A stretch of DNA of 62,200 nt, filler included. It is 4 parts of 4 records of this genome, joined end to end, with 100 filler letters (N's around TTAATTAATTAA, not from the genome) between each part and the next. Parts side by side here need not be neighbours in the genome. Positions count along the whole stretch, not along the records: positions 28,815 to 51,467 come from SRR20825019_3110; 3 more parts are not named here. The stretch is one strand, 5' to 3'. The position numbers and the translations under genes were made by a program. Positions 15,747-52,971 of the stretch are shown here, piece after piece. Under the pieces are notes generated by a model. That model searched no databases. It was given only the letters and a program-made list of their open reading frames with translations, and had not been told where the DNA came from. How positions within the stretch are numbered: the first letter of the stretch is position 1; the number at the start of each line of letters is the position of its first letter.

Positions 15747-15833
15747 CGCGAAGAAGGAGGAATCGAGCCCCTGTGACTTTCGCCACCAACGGATTTGAAG
15801 TCCGTCCCCAGGACCACCCAGGATCATCCTCGC
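15747..15833 (-). tRNA. tRNA-Sec (anticodon TCA), eukaryotic 9/4 type
   Basis: GCGAGGATGATCCTGGGTGGTCCTGGGGACGGACTTCAAATCCGTTGGTGGCGAAAGTCACAGGGGCTCGATTCCTCCTTCTTCGCG: 87 nt, 9-bp acceptor with U-U pair, 6-bp D stem with TGGT loop, 6-bp anticodon stem, loop CTTCAAA, long variable arm, 4-bp T stem, G discriminator; T8 Pol III terminator directly downstream. Confidence 0.96.
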
Positions 15834-28410: not shown

Positions 28411-28714
28411 GTGTTATCAGGTGTGACTCGTGACTACAGAGCCTAACAACTTGACAACTAGTTTTGGACTATTGGAACAGATCTTTGCAGAACGGATACT
28501 AATAATGGATACCTGGCCTGCTTCGCGCATGCCTCATCTCCGGCTTCCAGCTGTGGGATCTCGTACCCCTCCACTGCTAACAAGCTTAGTAAGTGTTAGT
28601 GCCCGGACGGGGCCTAGCGCCCCTAGTCTTCACTGTGCGATATTGTGTTATTGAGTAAGTGTGCAGTAGCCCGGCCAAAGAGCCTCCACGCCCCCCCCCC
28701 CCCCCCCCCCCCCC

Positions 28715-38875: not shown

Positions 38876-39517
38876 TTATTCGGCATACCCATTTTTAAGT
38901 GCATAAACCGCTAAACCTACGCGTGTTTTAAGCTCAAGTTTCTCAAAAAGGCTGTCTCTGTAGTTTTCAACTGTTCTGGGACTACAGAACATTTTTTCAG
39001 AAATCTCTCTGTAGTTCATCTCTGTAACCGTGTACCGAAGAAATTCTTCTTCACGATTCGTTAAGTCAATTTTAAGATGCCCATTTATGGTATCATCGCT
39101 TATACTTGTAAATACTTTGCTTCGAGCCCATTCTGGAAAATAACTTCCATTTAAAATTAAACCGTTTAAAGCCTTTTCTAATTCTGTGGGGTGAACATTT
39201 TTAAGCATATATCCTTTAGAGCCATTTTTAATCATTTTTATTAAACTCTGATCGTCTTCTTGCATACTCAAAACCATTACTAAAATACTTGGATGTGTAT
39301 TTTTTATCCATTCAGCTGTTTCAAAACCATCCATTATGGGCATACTAATGTCTAATAATACAATGTCTGGAATTTTTTTTAGTTTTAGTTTCTCTTGAAA
39401 ATCGAGCCCGTTTTCGCAAGTGTATAAAACTTCAAATTGCTTAAAATTTGAAATAATACTGCTCAACGCATTAGCGATTAAAACATGATCGTCAATAATA
39501 ACTATAGAGTTTTTCAT
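38876..39517 (-). CDS. NarL/LuxR-family response regulator
   Basis: REC (IIDDH, LLDISMP.MDG, GYMLK) plus HTH (LTNREEEFL...SPRTVENYR..LFEKL). Confidence 0.93.
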   Translation of the reverse strand: MKNSIVIIDDHVLIANALSSIISNFKQFEVLYTCENGLDFQEKLKLKKIPDIVLLDISMPIMDGFETAEWIKNTHPSILVMVLSMQEDDQSLIKMIKNGSKGYMLKNVHPTELEKALNGLILNGSYFPEWARSKVFTSISDDTINGHLKIDLTNREEEFLRYTVTEMNYREISEKMFCSPRTVENYRDSLFEKLELKTRVGLAVYALKNGYAE

Positions 39518-40296
39518 GGTGAAAAAGGTATTTCAATAATTAGAGTAGTTCCTATATTTTCGAGGCTATTTAAAGTAGAGAAACCACCTATAAGTTCCGT
39601 TCTTTTTTCAATGTTTTTAAGTCCGATTCCATTAGATTTAACCTTTTCGATATTAAAACCCTTGCCATCATCTTCAAGTTTTAGCACTATGTTAGTTTGT
39701 GCTTTATATAAGGAAACCTTTATGTTTCTACACGCAGCGTGTTTTATACTATTCTGAATAAATTCCTGTGTAATTCTAAATAGTACACTTTTTATTGCGT
39801 AACTGCCAGCTTCCACTTTATCTTTATGTTCAAAACTAACTTTAGCAACATTTAAATCATTAATTCTTACACACTCATTATTTATTAATACAGAAAGTGC
39901 ATTGTGGTCGATAGTATTTGAAGTTAGAGATTTGGATAATTCGCGTAAGTCTGACAAAGACTGGTTTATTATATCGCTAATATTCGTAATGTTTTGGTTT
40001 ATATGTGGTGCTTTATTTTCAAAAGCCAACTGTTGCATATAAAGACTTGCAAGCGTAAGTTTTTGCCCCACATTATCGTGAATTTCTCTTCCTATATGTC
40101 TCATGGTTTGCGATTGAATCTCCATTTCAGTTTCTAAAAGTTCCTTTTTGTGAATCTCGTCAATAGTATGAATTTCAGATAAATGTGCTTTCTTCTTAAT
40201 ACGATATTGGCGAACAAAAATGATTATTGCACTTAGGAATGCAATAAATATAATACTGAAAAGTATTAATGAAATTATAATTGTTGTTTTCCCCAT
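39514..40296 (-). CDS. Sensor histidine kinase (HisKA_3) with a single TM and no sensor domain
   Basis: One N-terminal TM; IGREIHDNVGQKL, FRITQEFIQNSIKHA, DDGKGF, GIGLKNI. Confidence 0.92.
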   Translation of the reverse strand: MGKTTIIISLILFSIIFIAFLSAIIIFVRQYRIKKKAHLSEIHTIDEIHKKELLETEMEIQSQTMRHIGREIHDNVGQKLTLASLYMQQLAFENKAPHINQNITNISDIINQSLSDLRELSKSLTSNTIDHNALSVLINNECVRINDLNVAKVSFEHKDKVEAGSYAIKSVLFRITQEFIQNSIKHAACRNIKVSLYKAQTNIVLKLEDDGKGFNIEKVKSNGIGLKNIEKRTELIGGFSTLNSLENIGTTLIIEIPFSP

Positions 40297-40922
40297 ATAA
40301 AAGATGCTCCAAATAGTAAATACATAATGCAGTTAGCTAATAAAAAATAGAGGTAATAAAAATCCCATATTATAGGATACTCTTCATAAAATAAATTTCC
40401 AAAAACATGAAAAGGAAAAGTTCCTAAGTAAAATAGTACGATTCCTATGTTTATATAAAACATTTTGTTTTCACGAAATTTTAGAATATCATCATTCTTA
40501 ATTTGTTTAATAAATTCTAAGATAATTAAAAGTGTAAGTATTAAAGTGCCAACTGTCATGCTTAAAGAAGTAGCTGATTTAATATCTACAAAATAAACTA
40601 TTAAGAAAATTGTGGCTAAAAAAATAATTGAGCAACTAAAGAATAATTTTTTATTCTGTAGCGATTTAAAAGCAATTAGCCAATACAAAAAAATATATTG
40701 AAGCGGTACACCAATGAAGAGATAATATTGATGAAAAGATATAAAATATGTAGTATTATTTCCAATCCAGAAATACTCTTGTAGAAAAATAAATATTAAG
40801 TAGATTGAAAACCATTTCCAATAACTATTTCTTAATTTATAAAAATAAAATACACCCATTAGGGCAGAAAAGAATTCTGCCCATAATAAAGCGTCATTTA
40901 ATATGAATTGTAACTCTTGCAT
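40275..40922 (-). CDS. Integral membrane protein (about 7 TM), unknown function
   Basis: 215 aa, strongly hydrophobic and aromatic-rich; overlaps the kinase start by 22 nt. Confidence 0.8.
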   Translation of the reverse strand: MQELQFILNDALLWAEFFSALMGVFYFYKLRNSYWKWFSIYLIFIFLQEYFWIGNNTTYFISFHQYYLFIGVPLQYIFLYWLIAFKSLQNKKLFFSCSIIFLATIFLIVYFVDIKSATSLSMTVGTLILTLLIILEFIKQIKNDDILKFRENKMFYINIGIVLFYLGTFPFHVFGNLFYEEYPIIWDFYYLYFLLANCIMYLLFGASFIWGKQQL

Positions 40923-40934
40923 TGTATAATACTA

Positions 40935-41642
40935 TTAAAAACCCAATCCAGATGAAACCCTTGGCGGATATAATCCTCCATGGTTTTGTGCGCCTGGTCT
41001 AGGGTCTCCAGAATCGTTGTTTGTTCCTCCAATTGCTGCAGTTTGTAGCGGATTACGGTAAATATATGCTTGAGAAGGATCCACACCCACAGCATCCTTT
41101 GGGTTTGTATAATCATAATCATTGATTGCTCCTAACCCCAGCTGGTAAGTATTAATATCTAATGGATTAAAATCAACTTCTTCTCCATTTATGCGTTTCG
41201 TTGGTATTATAACTAAAGTGTGATGCTTCTCATATCCTTTACCTGCCAAATCACCTAACTCAGGGTCGGTGGGAGATATTACCTCAGGATAACTAGCATA
41301 ATAAATACGTAGTCCTAAATCTTCAGTAGTAATTGTATTCTCGAGCTTTTTGGTATTGAATTCAAGATGGTATATAAATTTCTTAATTGTTTCTAAATCG
41401 AACCAAATAGACTCTGCATCTTTAATTAAAGGTTCTGATGTTTCAATATATCTAAGTTGTCTATCTCTATACTCATTTACTATTTCATGCACCAGTCCAG
41501 AACTTAAGGTATTCATTTCTAAATTAGAGTAACGCATACAAATTTGGTCGTCTGGAATAGAAACAGGTGGATATTTATAAACATACATTCCAAAAGCGAA
41601 TAAAACCACTGCTAAAGTCAAAGTTAAAAGTCTAGTTTTCAT
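40935..41642 (-). CDS. Exported or membrane-anchored hypothetical protein with C-terminal NHGGLYPP motif
   Basis: 235 aa; N-terminal hydrophobic segment; SIWFDLETIKKFI, GLRIYYASY, HTLVIIPT, NHGGLYPP; Bacteroidetes -7 promoter element TACTTTTG at 41691-41684. Confidence 0.8.
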   Translation of the reverse strand: MKTRLLTLTLAVVLFAFGMYVYKYPPVSIPDDQICMRYSNLEMNTLSSGLVHEIVNEYRDRQLRYIETSEPLIKDAESIWFDLETIKKFIYHLEFNTKKLENTITTEDLGLRIYYASYPEVISPTDPELGDLAGKGYEKHHTLVIIPTKRINGEEVDFNPLDINTYQLGLGAINDYDYTNPKDAVGVDPSQAYIYRNPLQTAAIGGTNNDSGDPRPGAQNHGGLYPPRVSSGLGF

Positions 41643-41843
41643 ATTGTTAAATTTAAATTGATTAAAGTTACTTTTTATTTTGTCAAAAGTAAGCTGTCAT
41701 CCCATTTTTATCTACCGCACTGAAACCTAAATACATAGGGTTAAAAAACCTTTTTTATTTCCGTTGAACCTACTTCTCTATTTAAGTGAATCGCTCATAG
41801 ACTGAACCTGAGTGTTTTATGAGATTTGTAAAGCAAAAAACAG

Positions 41844-41873
41844 GGAAGCCGAAAACTGTATTATAGAGTAGGT
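41844..41873 (+). promoter_or_regulatory. Candidate structured cis-regulatory leader, copy 1
   Basis: GGAAGCCGAAAACTGTATTATAGAGTAGGT, 22 nt before the vWA ATG; near-identical to 43160-43193. Confidence 0.65.
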
Positions 41874-41895
41874 AAAATATTAAATATTAGAAATT

Positions 41896-43143
41896 ATGGG
41901 GAAACAACGGAAAAAAGTCGAAAATAAAAAGGCTGCCGAAATTTCAAAATCAATTATGGTTAAGAAAGATATAGAAAAAGAAAACTATAAAGAGTGGACT
42001 GAAAAAACTAATGCTATCCTTGATGAGTTATCAGCATCAAAAGTAAACACTTTATCACATTGTGATGAAGATGAAAAAGGTTGTGGGTGTGGAGGCCATG
42101 GCGACTCAACAACCAGTGGAACAAAGACAGATTTAATTGTTTTGATTGACACAAGTGGATCAATGGGTTCTTCTGCTAAAGCGGTTTCTGATGCGGTTTC
42201 GATTGCAATTGAAAAGGCTAAAGCTGCTTGTGATCCCGATCTCGAAATTACTTTTTTAGGGGTTGATGGAATATGGGCAGGAACTGCTTTTACAAAAAGT
42301 CATCGCAGTTATATTACAGGAATACATGGATCCGTATCATTGGCAGCAGACAGACCACCTTCAGGATATAAACAAGAACAAGGTGCAAATGCTATTGAAG
42401 ATTTATCAAAATACGCTAAATGGAGAAAAGATGCCTGTAGAGCAATCTTTTATATAAGTGATGAGGAATTGGATGGAAGTAGTCCGAGAAATGATTTTGC
42501 TAATGAAGCAGCTGAAACCAATGCTGCAATTGCAGAAGCAAATACAAATAATGTTACAGTTTTTGCGCATCATTTAACATATCAAAATTTACATGCAAAT
42601 ATTTTAGAGAATTATAAAGATCTATGCCATAAAACTGGAGGGGAAGTATATTTCAGTAGTGCTCCAAATAAGGAAGAGTATATCAATCTTTTAAAAGAAG
42701 TTATATGTAACGCTTGTGGAATTGATAGATGCAAAGAAGTAGATATGACAGAAATTCAACCTTGCATCTCGATAAAATGGGGCGATAGTGATTGTGACTG
42801 CGTTGAATCATCGGACTATGAAGTCATGACAATTACTGTATGTAACTGTTTCACAAACTTAAAATTTTCAAACTTTAAAATTTCTATGATTGAGGTTTTG
42901 AACGAAAATGGTAAACCTGTCCCTACTTTACCTAATGGCACTCCATCTGTAAAACTCCATCCTATCGGAGTATATTGTTTTGGAGATATTGAGCCTTGTT
43001 CATGTGTTTCAAGAGAATTTGTACTTATTAATGAAGGTGCAAAAGAAGGCAAGTATCAAATAAAACTTAATGGTGTTTGCTACGGTATTAATAAACTGGA
43101 AGAGACAGAAGAATGCTTCTCATTTACAATATGTAAAGATTAA
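41896..43143 (+). CDS. vWA-domain protein with Cys-rich C-terminal domain
   Basis: DLIVLIDTSGSMG MIDAS motif, AIFYISDE; 20 Cys in total; no signal peptide. Confidence 0.85.
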   Translation: MGKQRKKVENKKAAEISKSIMVKKDIEKENYKEWTEKTNAILDELSASKVNTLSHCDEDEKGCGCGGHGDSTTSGTKTDLIVLIDTSGSMGSSAKAVSDAVSIAIEKAKAACDPDLEITFLGVDGIWAGTAFTKSHRSYITGIHGSVSLAADRPPSGYKQEQGANAIEDLSKYAKWRKDACRAIFYISDEELDGSSPRNDFANEAAETNAAIAEANTNNVTVFAHHLTYQNLHANILENYKDLCHKTGGEVYFSSAPNKEEYINLLKEVICNACGIDRCKEVDMTEIQPCISIKWGDSDCDCVESSDYEVMTITVCNCFTNLKFSNFKISMIEVLNENGKPVPTLPNGTPSVKLHPIGVYCFGDIEPCSCVSREFVLINEGAKEGKYQIKLNGVCYGINKLEETEECFSFTICKD

Positions 43144-43159
43144 GCTTTTTAAAAAAGGA

Positions 43160-43193
43160 GGAAGCCGAAAATCCTGTATTAAATAGAGTAGGC
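43160..43193 (+). promoter_or_regulatory. Candidate structured cis-regulatory leader, copy 2
   Basis: GGAAGCCGAAAATCCTGTATTAAATAGAGTAGGC, 23 nt before the next ATG. Confidence 0.65.
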
Positions 43194-43216
43194 ATTTTTT
43201 TAAATATATAGAAATT

Positions 43217-44032
43217 ATGACAAGTTCAGAAGAAGCAATGGAAAGAGCTGGTGATGTTCAAAACTTAGGTTTTGTAGAATTCACTTCCGATTTAGTACGA
43301 AATGTATACAAGGTAATAACAGATTCAGCATTAGATCAATTAAAAGCGTATGGTGAATTAGTTCAAACTGTTTCAAAACCATTAATTGAATATCAAAAAG
43401 AAGTAACAGGGATTACATTTAATGACTCAGAAATGCTGACAACTAGTGGAAATGAAACCCAACTTAATAATTATATAAATGAAGTCTTGGGATTAAGTAC
43501 AGATACTGATGAAATTTCTCTTGATAGTTCTCAGACAAATGTTTTAACTGAACAATTTTCAGGTGTTAAAATTAAGGATGGAACCACTAGTAAAGAAATC
43601 AATGAATCAATTGACACTGATAAAATTACAAAAACGGACTTGCAAAAATTTGTTTATCAAAAATTAGCAGAAACCACTAAGGAAAGCTACTCTATGCTAG
43701 TTACAATTCTAAAATTAGGAATGCAGAAAGTTGAAGTTGTGGATGGACAAATACATACCAAACTTGTTTTTCATGTAGACTCAACAAATCAACGTTCTTC
43801 GGAAATGAATGATGTAGAATCAAGAGCCAGTAATTGGGGTGTATCTGGTTCTGCATCGGCGAGATGGGGTTGGGGAAGAGCAAATGTAAGCGGACACTAT
43901 AATTCTAGTGCTGTAAAAGTTCGTGTAGTCAATGAAAAATCATCTTCAGCAGTAAATCTTAAAACAGATATAATAGGAAGTGTGACCATTAATTTTAGAA
44001 GCGGCTCATTTCCTTCAATAGACGCAAATTAA
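43217..44032 (+). CDS. Hypothetical protein (helical N-half, Ser/Gly-rich beta C-half)
   Basis: 271-aa ORF in AT-rich DNA with typical Flavobacterial AT-rich initiation region. Confidence 0.8.
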   Translation: MTSSEEAMERAGDVQNLGFVEFTSDLVRNVYKVITDSALDQLKAYGELVQTVSKPLIEYQKEVTGITFNDSEMLTTSGNETQLNNYINEVLGLSTDTDEISLDSSQTNVLTEQFSGVKIKDGTTSKEINESIDTDKITKTDLQKFVYQKLAETTKESYSMLVTILKLGMQKVEVVDGQIHTKLVFHVDSTNQRSSEMNDVESRASNWGVSGSASARWGWGRANVSGHYNSSAVKVRVVNEKSSSAVNLKTDIIGSVTINFRSGSFPSIDAN

Positions 44033-44037
44033 TTATC

Positions 44038-44517
44038 ATGGAACTATCTAATTTTATTTCAATGGTTCAGTATGAAATACTGAAAAGTTTTGATTTTGCA
44101 TCTATAATGCAAGACGATTTGCAGAATGATTTGGACACAAAAATTCAATTAGCAATAGAGGCAGCAGAAATTGAAATTCCCTTAATATTTGAAATGGAGA
44201 GAAAAAGTGTTAATCCTTCTGATATTAAGTCTAAATATCCAGCAAAAACTTCATTAGAAGTACCTTTTAATACTAACTTGGAAAAAATTAAAATTGGCAG
44301 TAAAAATGTTATTTTAAACCCTATTTCTAAGGAATTGGATAAACCACAAAAAACCGCCAAGTTAGTCAAACTAGAAGAAAATACTCCAGATGAAAGTAGT
44401 ATTGAAGGAGATATAATTTTAGTTAAAATAGCTAATACTAACAGTAAAAAGGATTCAAATTTTGATGCAAGTTTGGTTGGGAAAATTAAATTAACCATAA
44501 AACCAATTTTAAAATAG
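44038..44517 (+). CDS. Hypothetical protein
   Basis: 159-aa ORF 5 nt after the previous stop, followed by a terminator. Confidence 0.75.
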   Translation: MELSNFISMVQYEILKSFDFASIMQDDLQNDLDTKIQLAIEAAEIEIPLIFEMERKSVNPSDIKSKYPAKTSLEVPFNTNLEKIKIGSKNVILNPISKELDKPQKTAKLVKLEENTPDESSIEGDIILVKIANTNSKKDSNFDASLVGKIKLTIKPILK

Positions 44518-44556
44518 AGCCCAAGAATAAAATAAAAAAGCAGTTCTATATTACTT

Positions 44557-44591
44557 AGCCCTCATACCTGTTTATATCTATGAGGGCTTTT
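44557..44591 (+). terminator. Intrinsic terminator between the vWA operon and convergent comM
   Basis: AGCCCTCATA-N12-TATGAGGGCT followed by TTT. Confidence 0.75.
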
Positions 44592-44625
44592 CATTCTTTA
44601 TGATAATACATCTTGGAAAATCACA

Positions 44626-51467: not shown

Positions 51468-51567
51468 NNNNNNNNNNNNNNNNNNNNNNNNNNNNNNNNN
51501 NNNNNNNNNNNTTAATTAATTAANNNNNNNNNNNNNNNNNNNNNNNNNNNNNNNNNNNNNNNNNNNN
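51468..51567. other. Artificial contig spacer
   Basis: 44 N + TTAATTAATTAA + 44 N. Confidence 0.99.
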
Positions 51568-52971
51568 GGCGCCATCGGCAAGCGCGGAGACGCGTGAATC
51601 GAGCAGGCCACCAATCTTCTCGGTGGCTTCGTCCGTCCTCTGCGCGAGGGTGGCCATCCGTGTGTCGAACAAGGTGGCGAGGTTATGGGTCGCATCTTCC
51701 GTGCCCTTGGTCAGGGAGGCGATGCGGGTATCGAGAAGGCTTGCCACGGCATCGCCCGACGTCGTGATCCGCTCCGAAAGGCTTTGGATCCGATCGTCAA
51801 TGCCCTTGTGGAGGTTTCCACCCGTGCCCTCGAGCTGCTTCAGAAGGGCCTCGCTCGATGCGTTCACCGAGGCTGCAAGTTGTCGGGATGCATCGGCAAT
51901 GGTCGCGCGGATGCGCTCGCCGGCCGTATCCAGTTCATCTTTCAGAATCTCGTGTGCGCCGGCAATGGACGCACGAACGCGTTCTGCGTGGCCTACAATG
52001 CCTTCGCGCTCAGATCCGAGGCCATCCACCAGATGGCGGATGCGCGTTTCGTTTTCCGAATAGGCGCGCTCAAGTTCACTTACCTCGGTGTGTACCAGTG
52101 TTTCGAGTTCCACGGCGCGCGAGAGGGTGCGATCCATGCCGTCACCCATCGCCTGCACTTCGCGACGAACCGCCTGGCCAACGGTCATAATGCGTTCGTG
52201 GGCAAGGTTTTCTGGTTCGGCAAGGCGGAAGGCTGCCTCAGCCATTGATTGCGCGGCCAGCCTCATCTCCTGAGCGCGGCGCACCATGACGGCAAAGCCC
52301 CAGAACAGGATGACCGGTACGACAATGCCTACGAGCAGCGCGATTGCATGCGGTGCCGCCAAAAGGGCATCGGTAGAGCGGATTTGCCAAAGATCGGGGC
52401 CATAGAGCATCTGGCCGAGGAGAAGGCCGCCGCCAATCCAGAGGGCCGAAAGGATGGCGACGAGCCAATAGGCAGTGTTCGGGGCGCGACGGTCGAACTT
52501 GCGCATGACTGCACTGAAGTCGCCGGCCCGGTCGTCGTTGGCGGGCGCAAATGGCTGGGCAGCAGTGTGCTCGGGCTCGGGATCGACCGGTGTGAGGTTC
52601 TTCCGGTTGGCAGGGGTTTCCTGGGATTTCTCGGGCCTGGCGACGGTGCTGCTGGCTTTCTCAGGCGCAGCGGCGGTCGAAACCGGAGTGCTCGCCTTTG
52701 CGCCCGGGGCATTTTTAGCCGTTTCCTTGGAGGATGGCGCGGTGTCTTTCTTCTCGCTCACGGCGACTTTCTCGTCTCCGTTCTGATCGCGATTTTCGCG
52801 CGCGAGTTCCTCGGCCGCTGCAGAAATCTGCGCTTCCAGGTCCTCCATGGAGGCGGCGATGTCCAGGTCGCCATTCTCCAAGCCGTCTGCAAGCTCCAGG
52901 TCGAGGGCATCCTCGAGTTCCTTCGCAAAATCGCGCTTGGGTTGATTCTTCTTTGCTACTGTACGCGCCAT
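51568..52971 (-). CDS. Growth-pole ring (GPR/RgsE-like) apolipoprotein-repeat membrane protein, N-terminal part
   Basis: Acidic N-terminus, PANDD, two TMs, RRAQEMR..A.SM.E.A.RLAEPE, VGQAVRREV, ELE.LVH.EV..LERAYSENE; helical repeats; truncated by contig end. Confidence 0.78.

What the first reader, a model, noticed from the sequence alone, without database searches (positions are those of the whole stretch)
41844..43219. Duplicated structured 5' leader (GCC-GAA ... AGTA-GGY) before two consecutive genes
Seen: both the vWA gene and the next gene are preceded at the same distance (22-23 nt) by GGAAGCCGAAAA-(TC)-CTGT-loop-ATAG-AGTAGG(T/C), then TAAATAT(A)TAGAAATTATG, although the two proteins share no evident similarity. 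The element folds as a GCC/GGY stem, a GAA/AGUA internal loop and a CTGT/ATAG stem of variable loop length. Known: GAA/AGUA is the loop E (sarcin-ricin-like, bulged-G) motif, often bound by proteins. Inference: a cis-regulatory RNA (antitermination, processing or translational control) that coordinates subunits of a structural operon; I do not recognise it as a named family.
Basis: partly seen in the sequence, partly recalled or inferred. Interest (0 to 1): 0.8.

Follow-up and report, generated by a model that had tools for sequence, protein, structure and literature searches.

The report
Known DUF805b leader pseudoknot, two copies
The repeated leader is real and structured, but it is two ordinary copies of an already catalogued Bacteroidota mRNA element (Rfam DUF805b), a tiny pseudoknot about 22 bases ahead of start codons whose function is still untested.

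Summary
Both copies exist as described (41839-41874 and 43155-43194, + strand). Each ends 22-23 nt before an ATG.

The proposed fold is half right. On 44 distinct family members, the GCC/GGY pairing is 97.7% paired and shows all four Watson-Crick combinations. The invariant GAA/AGUA is arranged as in a loop-E (S-turn) motif. The conserved partner of that strand is the 5' flank (ACAG/CUGU in copy 1, AGGA/UCCU in copy 2), which is 92.9% paired. The element is therefore an H-type pseudoknot.

It is common: 98 of 151 sampled Flavobacteriaceae genomes have a hit. It precedes unrelated genes (28 families among 43), mostly exported proteins and peptide precursors. The distance to the start codon has a median of 22 nt.

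The best-supported mechanism is control of translation initiation, one cistron at a time. This is inferred, not shown. Earlier reports of this scan reached the same verdict on other genomes. Nothing new; low interest.

The parts
41839..41874 (+). DUF805b RNA, copy 1. P1 5' strand ACAG 41840-41843; loop GGAAGCCGAAAA 41844-41855; P1 3' strand CUGU 41856-41859; linker AUUAU 41860-41864; tail AGAGUAGGU 41865-41873. Loop GCC 41848-41850 pairs with GGU 41871-41873.
   Evidence: Rfam RF02914, 42.1 bits, cut-off 35.6, E 1.3e-8; sequence read; pairs counted.
41874..41895 (+). 22-nt A/U-rich spacer of copy 1, with AAA at -14..-12 and A at -3 relative to the ATG. This is a Bacteroidota-type translation initiation region.
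   Evidence: for the sequence; for the family-wide A enrichment at -13..-11 and -3; PMC6847099 section 15 (read) for the role of these adenines in F. johnsoniae.
41896..43143 (+). 415-aa vWA-like protein (P0001). It has a DTSGS MIDAS-like motif and a Cys-rich C-terminal half.
   Evidence: ORF, translation. Only weak Pfam VWA_4/VWA_2 hits (E 0.037 and 0.12). Best relative is Aeqsu_2559 of Aequorivita sublithincola at 82% identity, which UniRef names a VWFA domain-containing protein.
43155..43194 (+). DUF805b RNA, copy 2. P1 5' strand AGGA 43156-43159; loop GGAAGCCGAAAA 43160-43171; P1 3' strand UCCU 43172-43175; linker GUAUUAAAU 43176-43184; tail AGAGUAGGC 43185-43193. Loop GCC 43164-43166 pairs with GGC 43191-43193. 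The element starts 12 nt after the vWA stop codon.
   Evidence: Rfam RF02914, 48.7 bits, E 8.1e-11; sequence; pairs counted.
43194..43216 (+). 23-nt A/U-rich spacer of copy 2, with AAA at -15..-13 and A at -3.
43217..44032 (+). 271-aa protein of unknown family (P0002).
   Evidence: No Pfam or NCBIfam family. 88% identical to Aeqsu_2558. Homologues in Bacteroidota loci also carry a DUF805b or DUF805 leader.
44038..44517 (+). 159-aa protein of unknown family (P0003). It starts 5 nt after the P0002 stop codon and has no leader of its own. It is a conserved partner of P0002.
   Evidence: tblastn finds it directly downstream of the P0002 homologue in L001, L002, L003, L004, L005 and L009.

Best explanation
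The two elements are ordinary members of the catalogued DUF805b RNA family (Rfam RF02914), a roughly 35-nt mRNA leader of Bacteroidota. The RNA folds into an H-type pseudoknot. A 3-5 bp hairpin (P1) closes a conserved 12-nt loop, G-N-A-A-NCC-GAAAA. The NCC of that loop pairs with GGN' in the conserved 3' tail AGAGUAGGN'. This brings the invariant GAA and AGUA opposite each other in the arrangement of a loop-E/S-turn module, stacked on P1.

The knot ends about 22 nt before the start codon. That is just 5' of the A-rich tract at -13..-11, which Bacteroidota ribosomes use in place of a Shine-Dalgarno sequence. My preferred mechanism is that each copy acts in cis on translation initiation of the cistron directly behind it. 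It would do so as a docking or recognition surface at the 5' edge of the ribosome-binding region, for the 30S subunit itself or for an as yet unknown RNA-binding factor.

Shown here: family membership, the pseudoknot pairings, the fixed spacing, gene orientation, and the diversity of downstream genes. Inferred: action on translation, and the S-turn geometry. Unknown: whether it activates or represses, and what binds it. My confidence in family membership is about 0.97. The confidence figure of this field (0.5) refers to the translational mechanism.
For: Membership:
- Both copies score over the curated cut-off of RF02914 across the full model, positions 1-35.

Structure, on 44 distinct elements (2 from the window, 42 from other genomes; alignment A2):
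- P1 is 92.9% paired and the loop-tail helix 97.7% paired.
- All 7 pairs show changes on both sides.
- 95.0% of cells are paired, against 71.6 +/- 1.7 in shuffles (0 of 500 shuffles reach it). Slid controls reach at most 45.3%.
- The first loop-tail pair occurs as GC 24, AU 6, UA 6, GU 3, CG 2, other 3.
- The Rfam model scores the loop-tail positions as single-stranded, so this covariation is not a by-product of hit selection.
- The vWA orthologue in G215 carries ACC/GGU where the window has GCC/GGU.

Spacing:
- The gap from the tail to the start codon has a median of 22 nt. It is 19-24 nt in 33 of 43 cases and 15-26 nt in 41 of 43.
- The distance from promoter-like motifs to the element is far less uniform.

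Initiation signals in the spacer, among the 41 elements with a 15-26 nt gap:
- A at -12 in 35 of 41, at -13 in 29, and at -3 in 32.
- These positions raise translation in F. johnsoniae, and the -14..-11 region is predicted to lie near protein S1 (PMC6847099, section 15 read).

Per-cistron use:
- Copy 2 begins 12 nt after the vWA stop codon.
- Close tandem copies before consecutive genes also occur in G002, in L039 and L046, and in G027 and G069.
- No terminator-like hairpin lies between an element and its ATG, or between the two window genes.

Lineage rather than gene specificity:
- P0002 homologues carry the leader in the 3 loci that are Bacteroidota or have Bacteroidota-type leaders (L001, L009, L012).
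- None was found in the 10 other loci, from Bacillota, Myxococcota and Bryobacteraceae. One of these, L013, has too little upstream sequence to judge.
Against: - No experiment on this family is in the searched literature. No RNA run holds the stretch. The level of action is therefore inferred only from anatomy.
- Single-sequence folding energies are no better than shuffles. The knot is intrinsically weak and may need a partner.
- In 10 of 44 cases a sigma-54-type motif ends 13-16 nt before P1. That places the knot at the very 5' end of the transcript, which would also fit a role in stability or processing.
- The 42 non-window elements are top-scoring Rfam hits and also passed my regex, which requires GAA and AGUA. 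The invariance of those bases and the quality of P1 are therefore partly selected for.
- Two of 43 spacings are outliers (32 and 56 nt).
- The 22-nt spacing could simply reflect the minimal unstructured ribosome landing site downstream of any structure.
Confidence: 0.5

Rival explanations
1. The element stabilises or processes the mRNA. The knot would protect the 5' end from exonucleases or pyrophosphohydrolase, or would mark a cleavage site that frees each cistron of a polycistronic mRNA as a stable unit.
For: In 10 of 44 cases a sigma-54-type -24/-12 motif ends 13-16 nt upstream of P1, so the knot would start within a few nt of the transcript's 5' end (position of the start site from recalled knowledge of sigma-54 promoters). 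Copies between genes, such as window copy 2, L039 and L046, would fit processing into separate units.
Against: A protective hairpin does not need about 20 invariant nucleotides or a fixed distance to the ATG. Spacing to the ATG is much tighter (33 of 43 within 19-24 nt) than spacing to promoter-like motifs.
Confidence: 0.17
2. The element is a very small riboswitch, comparable in size to the preQ1-I class. It would bind an ion or signalling molecule and modulate initiation of a dispersed regulon of exported proteins and peptides.
For: It is a compact H-type pseudoknot with many invariant unpaired bases (G8, A10, G15-A19, A36-A39 of alignment A2) next to the initiation region. The downstream genes are heterogeneous, 26 of 43 signal-peptide-like and 8 of 43 small GG-leader-like peptides (crude heuristics). 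That pattern recalls second-messenger riboswitch regulons (recalled comparison).
Against: No alternative or mutually exclusive pairing with the start region is conserved. The knot does not overlap the -13..-11 or -3 determinants. Downstream genes share no metabolic or transport theme. No ligand is suggested by context.
Confidence: 0.12
3. The element acts on transcription, by attenuation or antitermination, or by binding a regulator that acts on RNA polymerase.
For: The element lies in 5' leaders, and some follow regulated sigma-54-type promoters.
Against: Only about 22 A/U-rich nt separate the element from the ATG, and no terminator-like stem lies there or between the two window genes. One copy per cistron at a fixed distance from each ATG is not expected for a transcriptional device.
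Confidence: 0.05
4. The element is a DNA site, either a promoter for an alternative sigma factor (GGAA... / ...AGTAGG as -35/-10-like boxes) or an operator, and base pairing is irrelevant.
For: The conserved blocks GGAAGC and AGTAGG lie 17 nt apart in copy 1, which superficially resembles an ECF-type promoter (my own comparison, recalled).
Against: The distance between the blocks varies with the linker. The linker is 5 to 14 nt across the 44 elements, and the blocks are 17 nt apart in copy 1 against 21 nt in copy 2. Compensatory changes occur in two interleaved helices, one of them non-palindromic. Genuine promoter-like motifs lie upstream of the element.
Confidence: 0.03

Closest known systems
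DUF805b RNA motif (Rfam RF02914, type Cis-reg, clan CL00115). By my recollection it comes from the comparative survey of Weinberg et al. 2017 (PMC5737381). That paper's main text does not contain the word DUF805 and its supplements are closed.
   Same: Both window copies match the full model over the curated threshold. They have the 4-bp hairpin, the 12-nt loop GGAAgCCGAAAA and the tail AGAGUAGGcA. They lie upstream of genes in Bacteroidota-like DNA.
   Different: Nothing structural differs. The name-giving DUF805 gene is not downstream here, and it followed only 1 of 43 sampled elements. The printed Rfam consensus line shows only the hairpin. I could not check whether the loop-tail pseudoknot is annotated in the original description.
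DUF805 RNA motif (Rfam RF03081, same clan)
   Same: It shares the core, with loop ...ACCGAAAA and tail GAGUAGGA, and the position before genes. It precedes the P0002 homologue in the Flavobacterium MAG locus L012.
   Different: It is a 68-nt model with an extra 5' hairpin. The window copies lack that hairpin and are not reported as DUF805 (only the best match within a clan is kept).
Loop E / sarcin-ricin (bulged-G, S-turn) motif, AGUA opposite GAA (recalled structural knowledge)
   Same: The same two consensus strands are present. The 3' A of AGUA and the G of GAA abut a Watson-Crick helix (GCC/GGY), as in canonical examples.
   Different: Here the two strands are brought together by a pseudoknot rather than lying in a continuous internal loop. 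The non-canonical pairs cannot be tested by covariation, and there is no 3D evidence.
Small H-type pseudoknots next to ribosome-binding sites, for example the preQ1-I riboswitch and the E. coli rpsO/S15 operator pseudoknot (recalled)
   Same: Similar size, topology and location at the edge of the initiation region. They offer a plausible way of working, in which a ligand or protein is bound or 30S docking is modulated.
   Different: There is no sequence relationship. Those elements include or mask the SD or the AUG, whereas DUF805b ends about 22 nt upstream and leaves the A-rich initiation signals free. No partner is known.

Membership tests
Rfam RF02914 DUF805b RNA | Covariance-model score at or above the curated gathering score (35.6 bits) over the full model | tested here: met
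   48.7 bits (43155-43194) and 42.1 bits (41839-41874), model positions 1-35 of 35.
Rfam RF02914 DUF805b RNA | Short hairpin closing the conserved loop GGAAgCCGAAAA, followed by the conserved tail AGAGUAGGcA | tested here: met
   Alignment to the model. The stem differs between the copies in a compensatory way (ACAG/CUGU against AGGA/UCCU). P1 is 92.9% paired across 44 elements.
Rfam RF02914 DUF805b RNA | Lies in gene orientation in the 5' leader of a protein-coding gene of Bacteroidota | tested here: met
   22 and 23 nt before the ATGs. The downstream proteins are 82% and 88% identical to Aequorivita sublithincola proteins. 98 of 151 sampled Flavobacteriaceae genomes have a hit, against 0 of 14 control genomes.
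Rfam RF02914 DUF805b RNA | Association with DUF805-domain genes. This gives the family its name, and by my recollection it is not obligatory for the 'b' motif. | tested here: not met
   The downstream genes here are a vWA-like protein and an unknown protein. Only 1 of 43 sampled downstream proteins is PF05656 DUF805. I do not treat this feature as defining.
H-type RNA pseudoknot | Loop nucleotides of a hairpin pair with sequence 3' of the hairpin, supported by covariation | tested here: met
   Columns 12-14 pair with columns 40-42. 97.7% are paired and 3 of 3 pairs change on both sides (GC, AU, UA, CG, GU all occur). Slid controls are far lower.
Loop E / sarcin-ricin S-turn motif | AGUA opposite GAA, with a flanking Watson-Crick pair next to the A-G sheared pair | tested here: met
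   At sequence level, GAA and AGUA are present in 44 of 44 aligned elements and abut the covarying GCC/GGY helix. Both the filter I used and the Rfam model favour these bases.
Loop E / sarcin-ricin S-turn motif | Bulged-G, cross-strand stacked three-dimensional geometry | not testable with these tools
   This needs chemical probing or a solved structure.

The most novel reading that the evidence does not exclude
DUF805b could be a Bacteroidota-specific initiation module that works without a Shine-Dalgarno sequence. The pseudoknot with its S-turn would dock on the 30S platform or S1 side, or bind a dedicated and still unidentified factor. It would set the translation of a dispersed set of mostly exported proteins and peptide precursors, one copy per cistron. 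That would be a new kind of bacterial translational enhancer or operator in a phylum whose ribosomes ignore SD sequences.
Probability: 0.3. Interest if true: 0.65.

Novelty: already known. Interest (0 to 1): 0.15.

Why it matters
For this window it matters little. The finding is two more members of a catalogued family, and the scan has already reported the same family on several other genomes. The family itself remains an orphan. It is widespread in Flavobacteriaceae (98 of 151 sampled genomes). It has a well-supported pseudoknot and a strict position relative to start codons, in a phylum that does not use Shine-Dalgarno pairing. A functional test would be informative about translation control in Bacteroidota, but that question is not opened by this window.

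Tried and rejected
- Own-genome search: no genome is held for this window.
- Literature: 'DUF805b' gives 1 paper, a structural-alignment benchmark. 'DUF805' plus 'RNA' gives 11 papers, none on the motif's function judging from titles and abstracts in the listing. The Weinberg 2017 main text has 0 occurrences of DUF805, sarcin or loop E. The motif descriptions are presumably in the supplements, which are closed, so I could not check whether the pseudoknot or the gene associations were already described there.
- Expression: no RNA holder is listed for 41650-44600. Five contig-only runs hold the stretch.
I rejected this as evidence either way.
- Further degenerate copies: a permissive Rfam scan of 28000-52500 finds only the two. 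The 12-mer with up to 2 mismatches gives 13 hits against 8.8 expected, and only the two exact hits are real.
- Function of the regulated genes: Pfam and NCBIfam give nothing significant for P0001-P0003. PDB sequence search of P0001 gives nothing. The AlphaFold model of P0002 is mediocre (pLDDT 62.7) and Foldseek against PDB has no hit at E<=0.001. The ESM Atlas gives only unnamed clusters plus a weak DUF2589 lead at 0.85. The 'structural operon' idea is therefore unsupported, not disproved.
- Sigma-70-type promoter scan: 16 sites against 13.4 expected, which is uninformative and does not cover Bacteroidota promoters.
- Bacteroidota -7 box (TAnnTTTG, recalled consensus): it is found upstream of only a few elements and at variable distances. 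Window copy 1 has a one-mismatch version, GAGATTTG, at 41821-41828 (read).
Full report
**1. The observation**

- GGAAGCCGAAAA occurs exactly twice in the window, at 41844 and 43160 on the + strand.
- Each copy is followed, after 9 or 13 nt, by AGAGTAGG(T/C).
- A further 22 or 23 A/U-rich nt lead to the ATGs of a 415-aa ORF (41896-43143) and a 271-aa ORF (43217-44032).
- The two proteins do not match each other at blastp E<=1e-5.
- A third ORF (44038-44517) follows 5 nt after the second and has no leader of its own.

**2. Identity**

A scan of the whole window against Rfam 15 at curated thresholds returns three hits. One is a tRNA-Sec elsewhere in the window. The other two are the leader copies, both assigned to RF02914 'DUF805b RNA' (Cis-reg, clan CL00115). 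They score 48.7 bits (43155-43194, E 8.1e-11) and 42.1 bits (41839-41874, E 1.3e-8) against a gathering score of 35.6 (repeated).

**3. Structure**

The Rfam consensus is a 4-bp hairpin that encloses the 12-nt loop GGAAgCCGAAAA, followed by a conserved tail, uAAaAGAGUAGGcA. The stem uses the 5' flank. It is ACAG/CUGU in copy 1 and AGGA/UCCU in copy 2, so the two window copies already differ in a compensatory way.

- 9 hits in three genomes that encode relatives of the 271-aa protein;
- the 30 best-scoring loci from 151 sampled Flavobacteriaceae genomes.

After removing duplicates this gave 44 distinct elements, including the two from the window, which I aligned (A2). Every fetched Rfam hit was recovered by my regex. 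Two caveats apply: the regex requires GAA and AGUA, and these are top-scoring hits.

Pair counts:

| Helix | Paired | Pairs with changes on both sides |
|---|---|---|
| P1 (5' flank with the strand after the loop) | 92.9% | 4 of 4 |
| Loop GCC with tail GGY | 97.7% | 3 of 3 |

- The first loop-tail pair occurs as GC 24, AU 6, UA 6, GU 3, CG 2, and unpaired 3.
- Overall 95.0% of cells are paired, against 71.6 +/- 1.7 in shuffles (0 of 500 reach it). Slid controls reach at most 45.3%.
Single-sequence folding does predict it for the two window copies, but with energies no better than shuffles.

The family fold is therefore an H-type pseudoknot. The invariant GAA and AGUA then face each other next to that helix, in the strand arrangement of a loop-E/S-turn motif (recalled structural knowledge; the 3D geometry is untested). 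The first four loop bases read G-N-A-A.

**4. Context in the family**

*Frequency.* Hits at E<=0.001 occur in 98 of 151 sampled Flavobacteriaceae genomes. They exceed the cut-off in 66 of 151, and 0 of 14 control genomes have a hit. A genome usually has 1-10 hits.

*Downstream ORFs.* Of the 44 elements, 43 have an ORF of at least 45 aa starting within 150 nt on the same strand (L051 does not).

*Spacing.* The gap from AGAGUAGG to the start codon has a median of 22 nt. It is 19-24 nt in 33 of 43 cases and 15-26 nt in 41 of 43. The outliers are 32 and 56 nt.

*Initiation signals in the spacer.* Among the 41 elements with a 15-26 nt gap, A is present at -12 in 35, at -13 in 29, at -11 in 32 and at -3 in 32. 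T is present at -1 in 30. Adenines at -12/-13 and at -3 are experimentally supported positive determinants of initiation in Flavobacterium johnsoniae, and the -14..-11 region is predicted to lie near protein S1 (PMC6847099, section 15 read).

*Downstream proteins.*
- They fall into 28 blastp clusters.
- 26 of 43 have a signal-peptide-like N terminus and 8 of 43 are small peptides with a GG-leader-like motif. Both figures come from crude heuristics of my own.
- Pfam recognises few of them: Por_Secre_tail 3, DUF6520 2, and one each of DUF805, a methyltransferase, Lipocalin_4, ComC and Bacteroid_pep.

*Promoters.* In 10 of 44 cases a sigma-54-type GGCAY-N5-WTG motif ends 13-16 nt before P1, against 0 in two control sets. 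In those transcripts the knot sits at the very 5' end.

*Tandem copies.* Copies before consecutive genes recur elsewhere: G002, 1.4 kb apart; L039 and L046; G027 and G069, about 0.5 kb apart.

**5. The genes in the window**

The 415-aa protein has a DTSGS motif and weak VWA_4/VWA_2 hits (E 0.037 and 0.12). It is 82% identical to Aeqsu_2559 of Aequorivita sublithincola, which UniRef names a VWFA domain-containing protein. The 271-aa protein is 88% identical to the neighbouring Aeqsu_2558. It has no Pfam or NCBIfam family, a mediocre structure model (pLDDT 62.7) and no PDB fold match.

The 271-aa and 159-aa genes form a conserved pair that also occurs in Bacillota. Homologues of the 271-aa gene also occur in Myxococcota. 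Only the three Bacteroidota-type loci carry a DUF805b or DUF805 leader.

The vWA gene is not part of that module.
- It is absent from the 13 related loci.
- It was found in 1 of 401 sampled Flavobacteriaceae genomes (G215).
- In G215 it again has its own DUF805b leader, with ACC/GGU in the pseudoknot helix, and no 271-aa homologue was found within the locus fetched.

Each gene thus carries its own leader independently. Nothing supports a 'structural operon'.

**6. Mechanism**

Several features argue for action on translation initiation of the cistron directly downstream:
- one element per cistron;
- a fixed distance to the ATG rather than to the promoter;
- placement just 5' of an optimal SD-less initiation region;
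- the absence of any terminator-like structure between element and ATG.

The knot would serve as a recognition surface for the 30S subunit or for an unknown factor. This is an inference, and I give it about 0.5. The rivals are:
- a role in mRNA stability or processing (0.17);
- a small riboswitch (0.12);
- transcriptional control (0.05);
- a DNA site (0.03), which is contradicted by covariation in two interleaved helices and by the variable spacing between the conserved blocks.

No RNA-seq holder was listed, and no functional study was found.

**7. Verdict**

The element is nonetheless an ordinary pair of members of a catalogued orphan family. Earlier reports of this scan reached the same conclusion on other genomes, including the pseudoknot, the roughly 20-nt spacing, the sigma-54 association and the peptide-precursor association. 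My tests reproduced these points independently. I could not see the supplements of Weinberg et al. 2017, where the motif was presumably described. I therefore cannot say whether the pseudoknot is in the published drawing.

Noticed in passing
window 1-62200; sharp changes near 28500 and 51650: The window is a G+C mosaic: 61-65% (1-8 kb), about 50% (8-20 kb), 54-62% (20-28 kb), 30-40% (28.6-51.6 kb) and 58-59% (52-62 kb). The jumps occur within about 200 nt. An ORF on the minus strand (51520-52971) spans the right-hand jump. The low-GC block is Aequorivita-like (82-88% protein identity). The window may be a chimeric or concatenated assembly, or it may hold a large foreign insert.
   Followed up: partly
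window 41650-44600: Five public runs, labelled as five different organisms from two studies, each hold all sampled words of this stretch. This would fit a shared contaminant or co-cultured flavobacterium. I did not pursue it.
   Followed up: no
window 43217-44517; loci L001-L011: The 271-aa and 159-aa genes form a two-gene module of unknown function that is also found in Bacillota. Homologues of the 271-aa gene occur in Bacteroidota, Bacillota (Syntrophomonadaceae, Metabacillus, Alkalihalobacterium) and Myxococcota, where it is tandemly duplicated. The model shows long N-terminal helices, a long beta-hairpin, and a Gly/Ser/Trp-rich segment at 187-248 with pLDDT below 50. There is no PDB match.
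   Followed up: partly
window 15748-15833 (-): A tRNA-Sec gene (Rfam RF01852, 73.2 bits) lies in the roughly 52% G+C part of the window.
   Followed up: no
loci L033, L034, L037, L038, L039, L042-L045, L047: A family of about 210-240-aa exported proteins (motif ...ERGIEFLIFPDG...) and a 148-aa exported protein are preceded in many Flavobacteriaceae by a sigma-54-type promoter motif followed 13-16 nt later by DUF805b. This is a conserved promoter-plus-leader cassette.
   Followed up: partly
window 38876-41642 (-): Divergent from the vWA gene lie a 235-aa exported protein, a 215-aa multi-pass membrane protein, a HisKA_3 histidine kinase and a LuxR-type response regulator. They could regulate the neighbouring genes, but this was not tested.
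   Followed up: no
L001 5992-6813: The P0002 homologue in this MAG locus has an open frame of only 214 aa, while the tblastn match runs to residue 269. This could be a frameshift or an assembly error.
   Followed up: no
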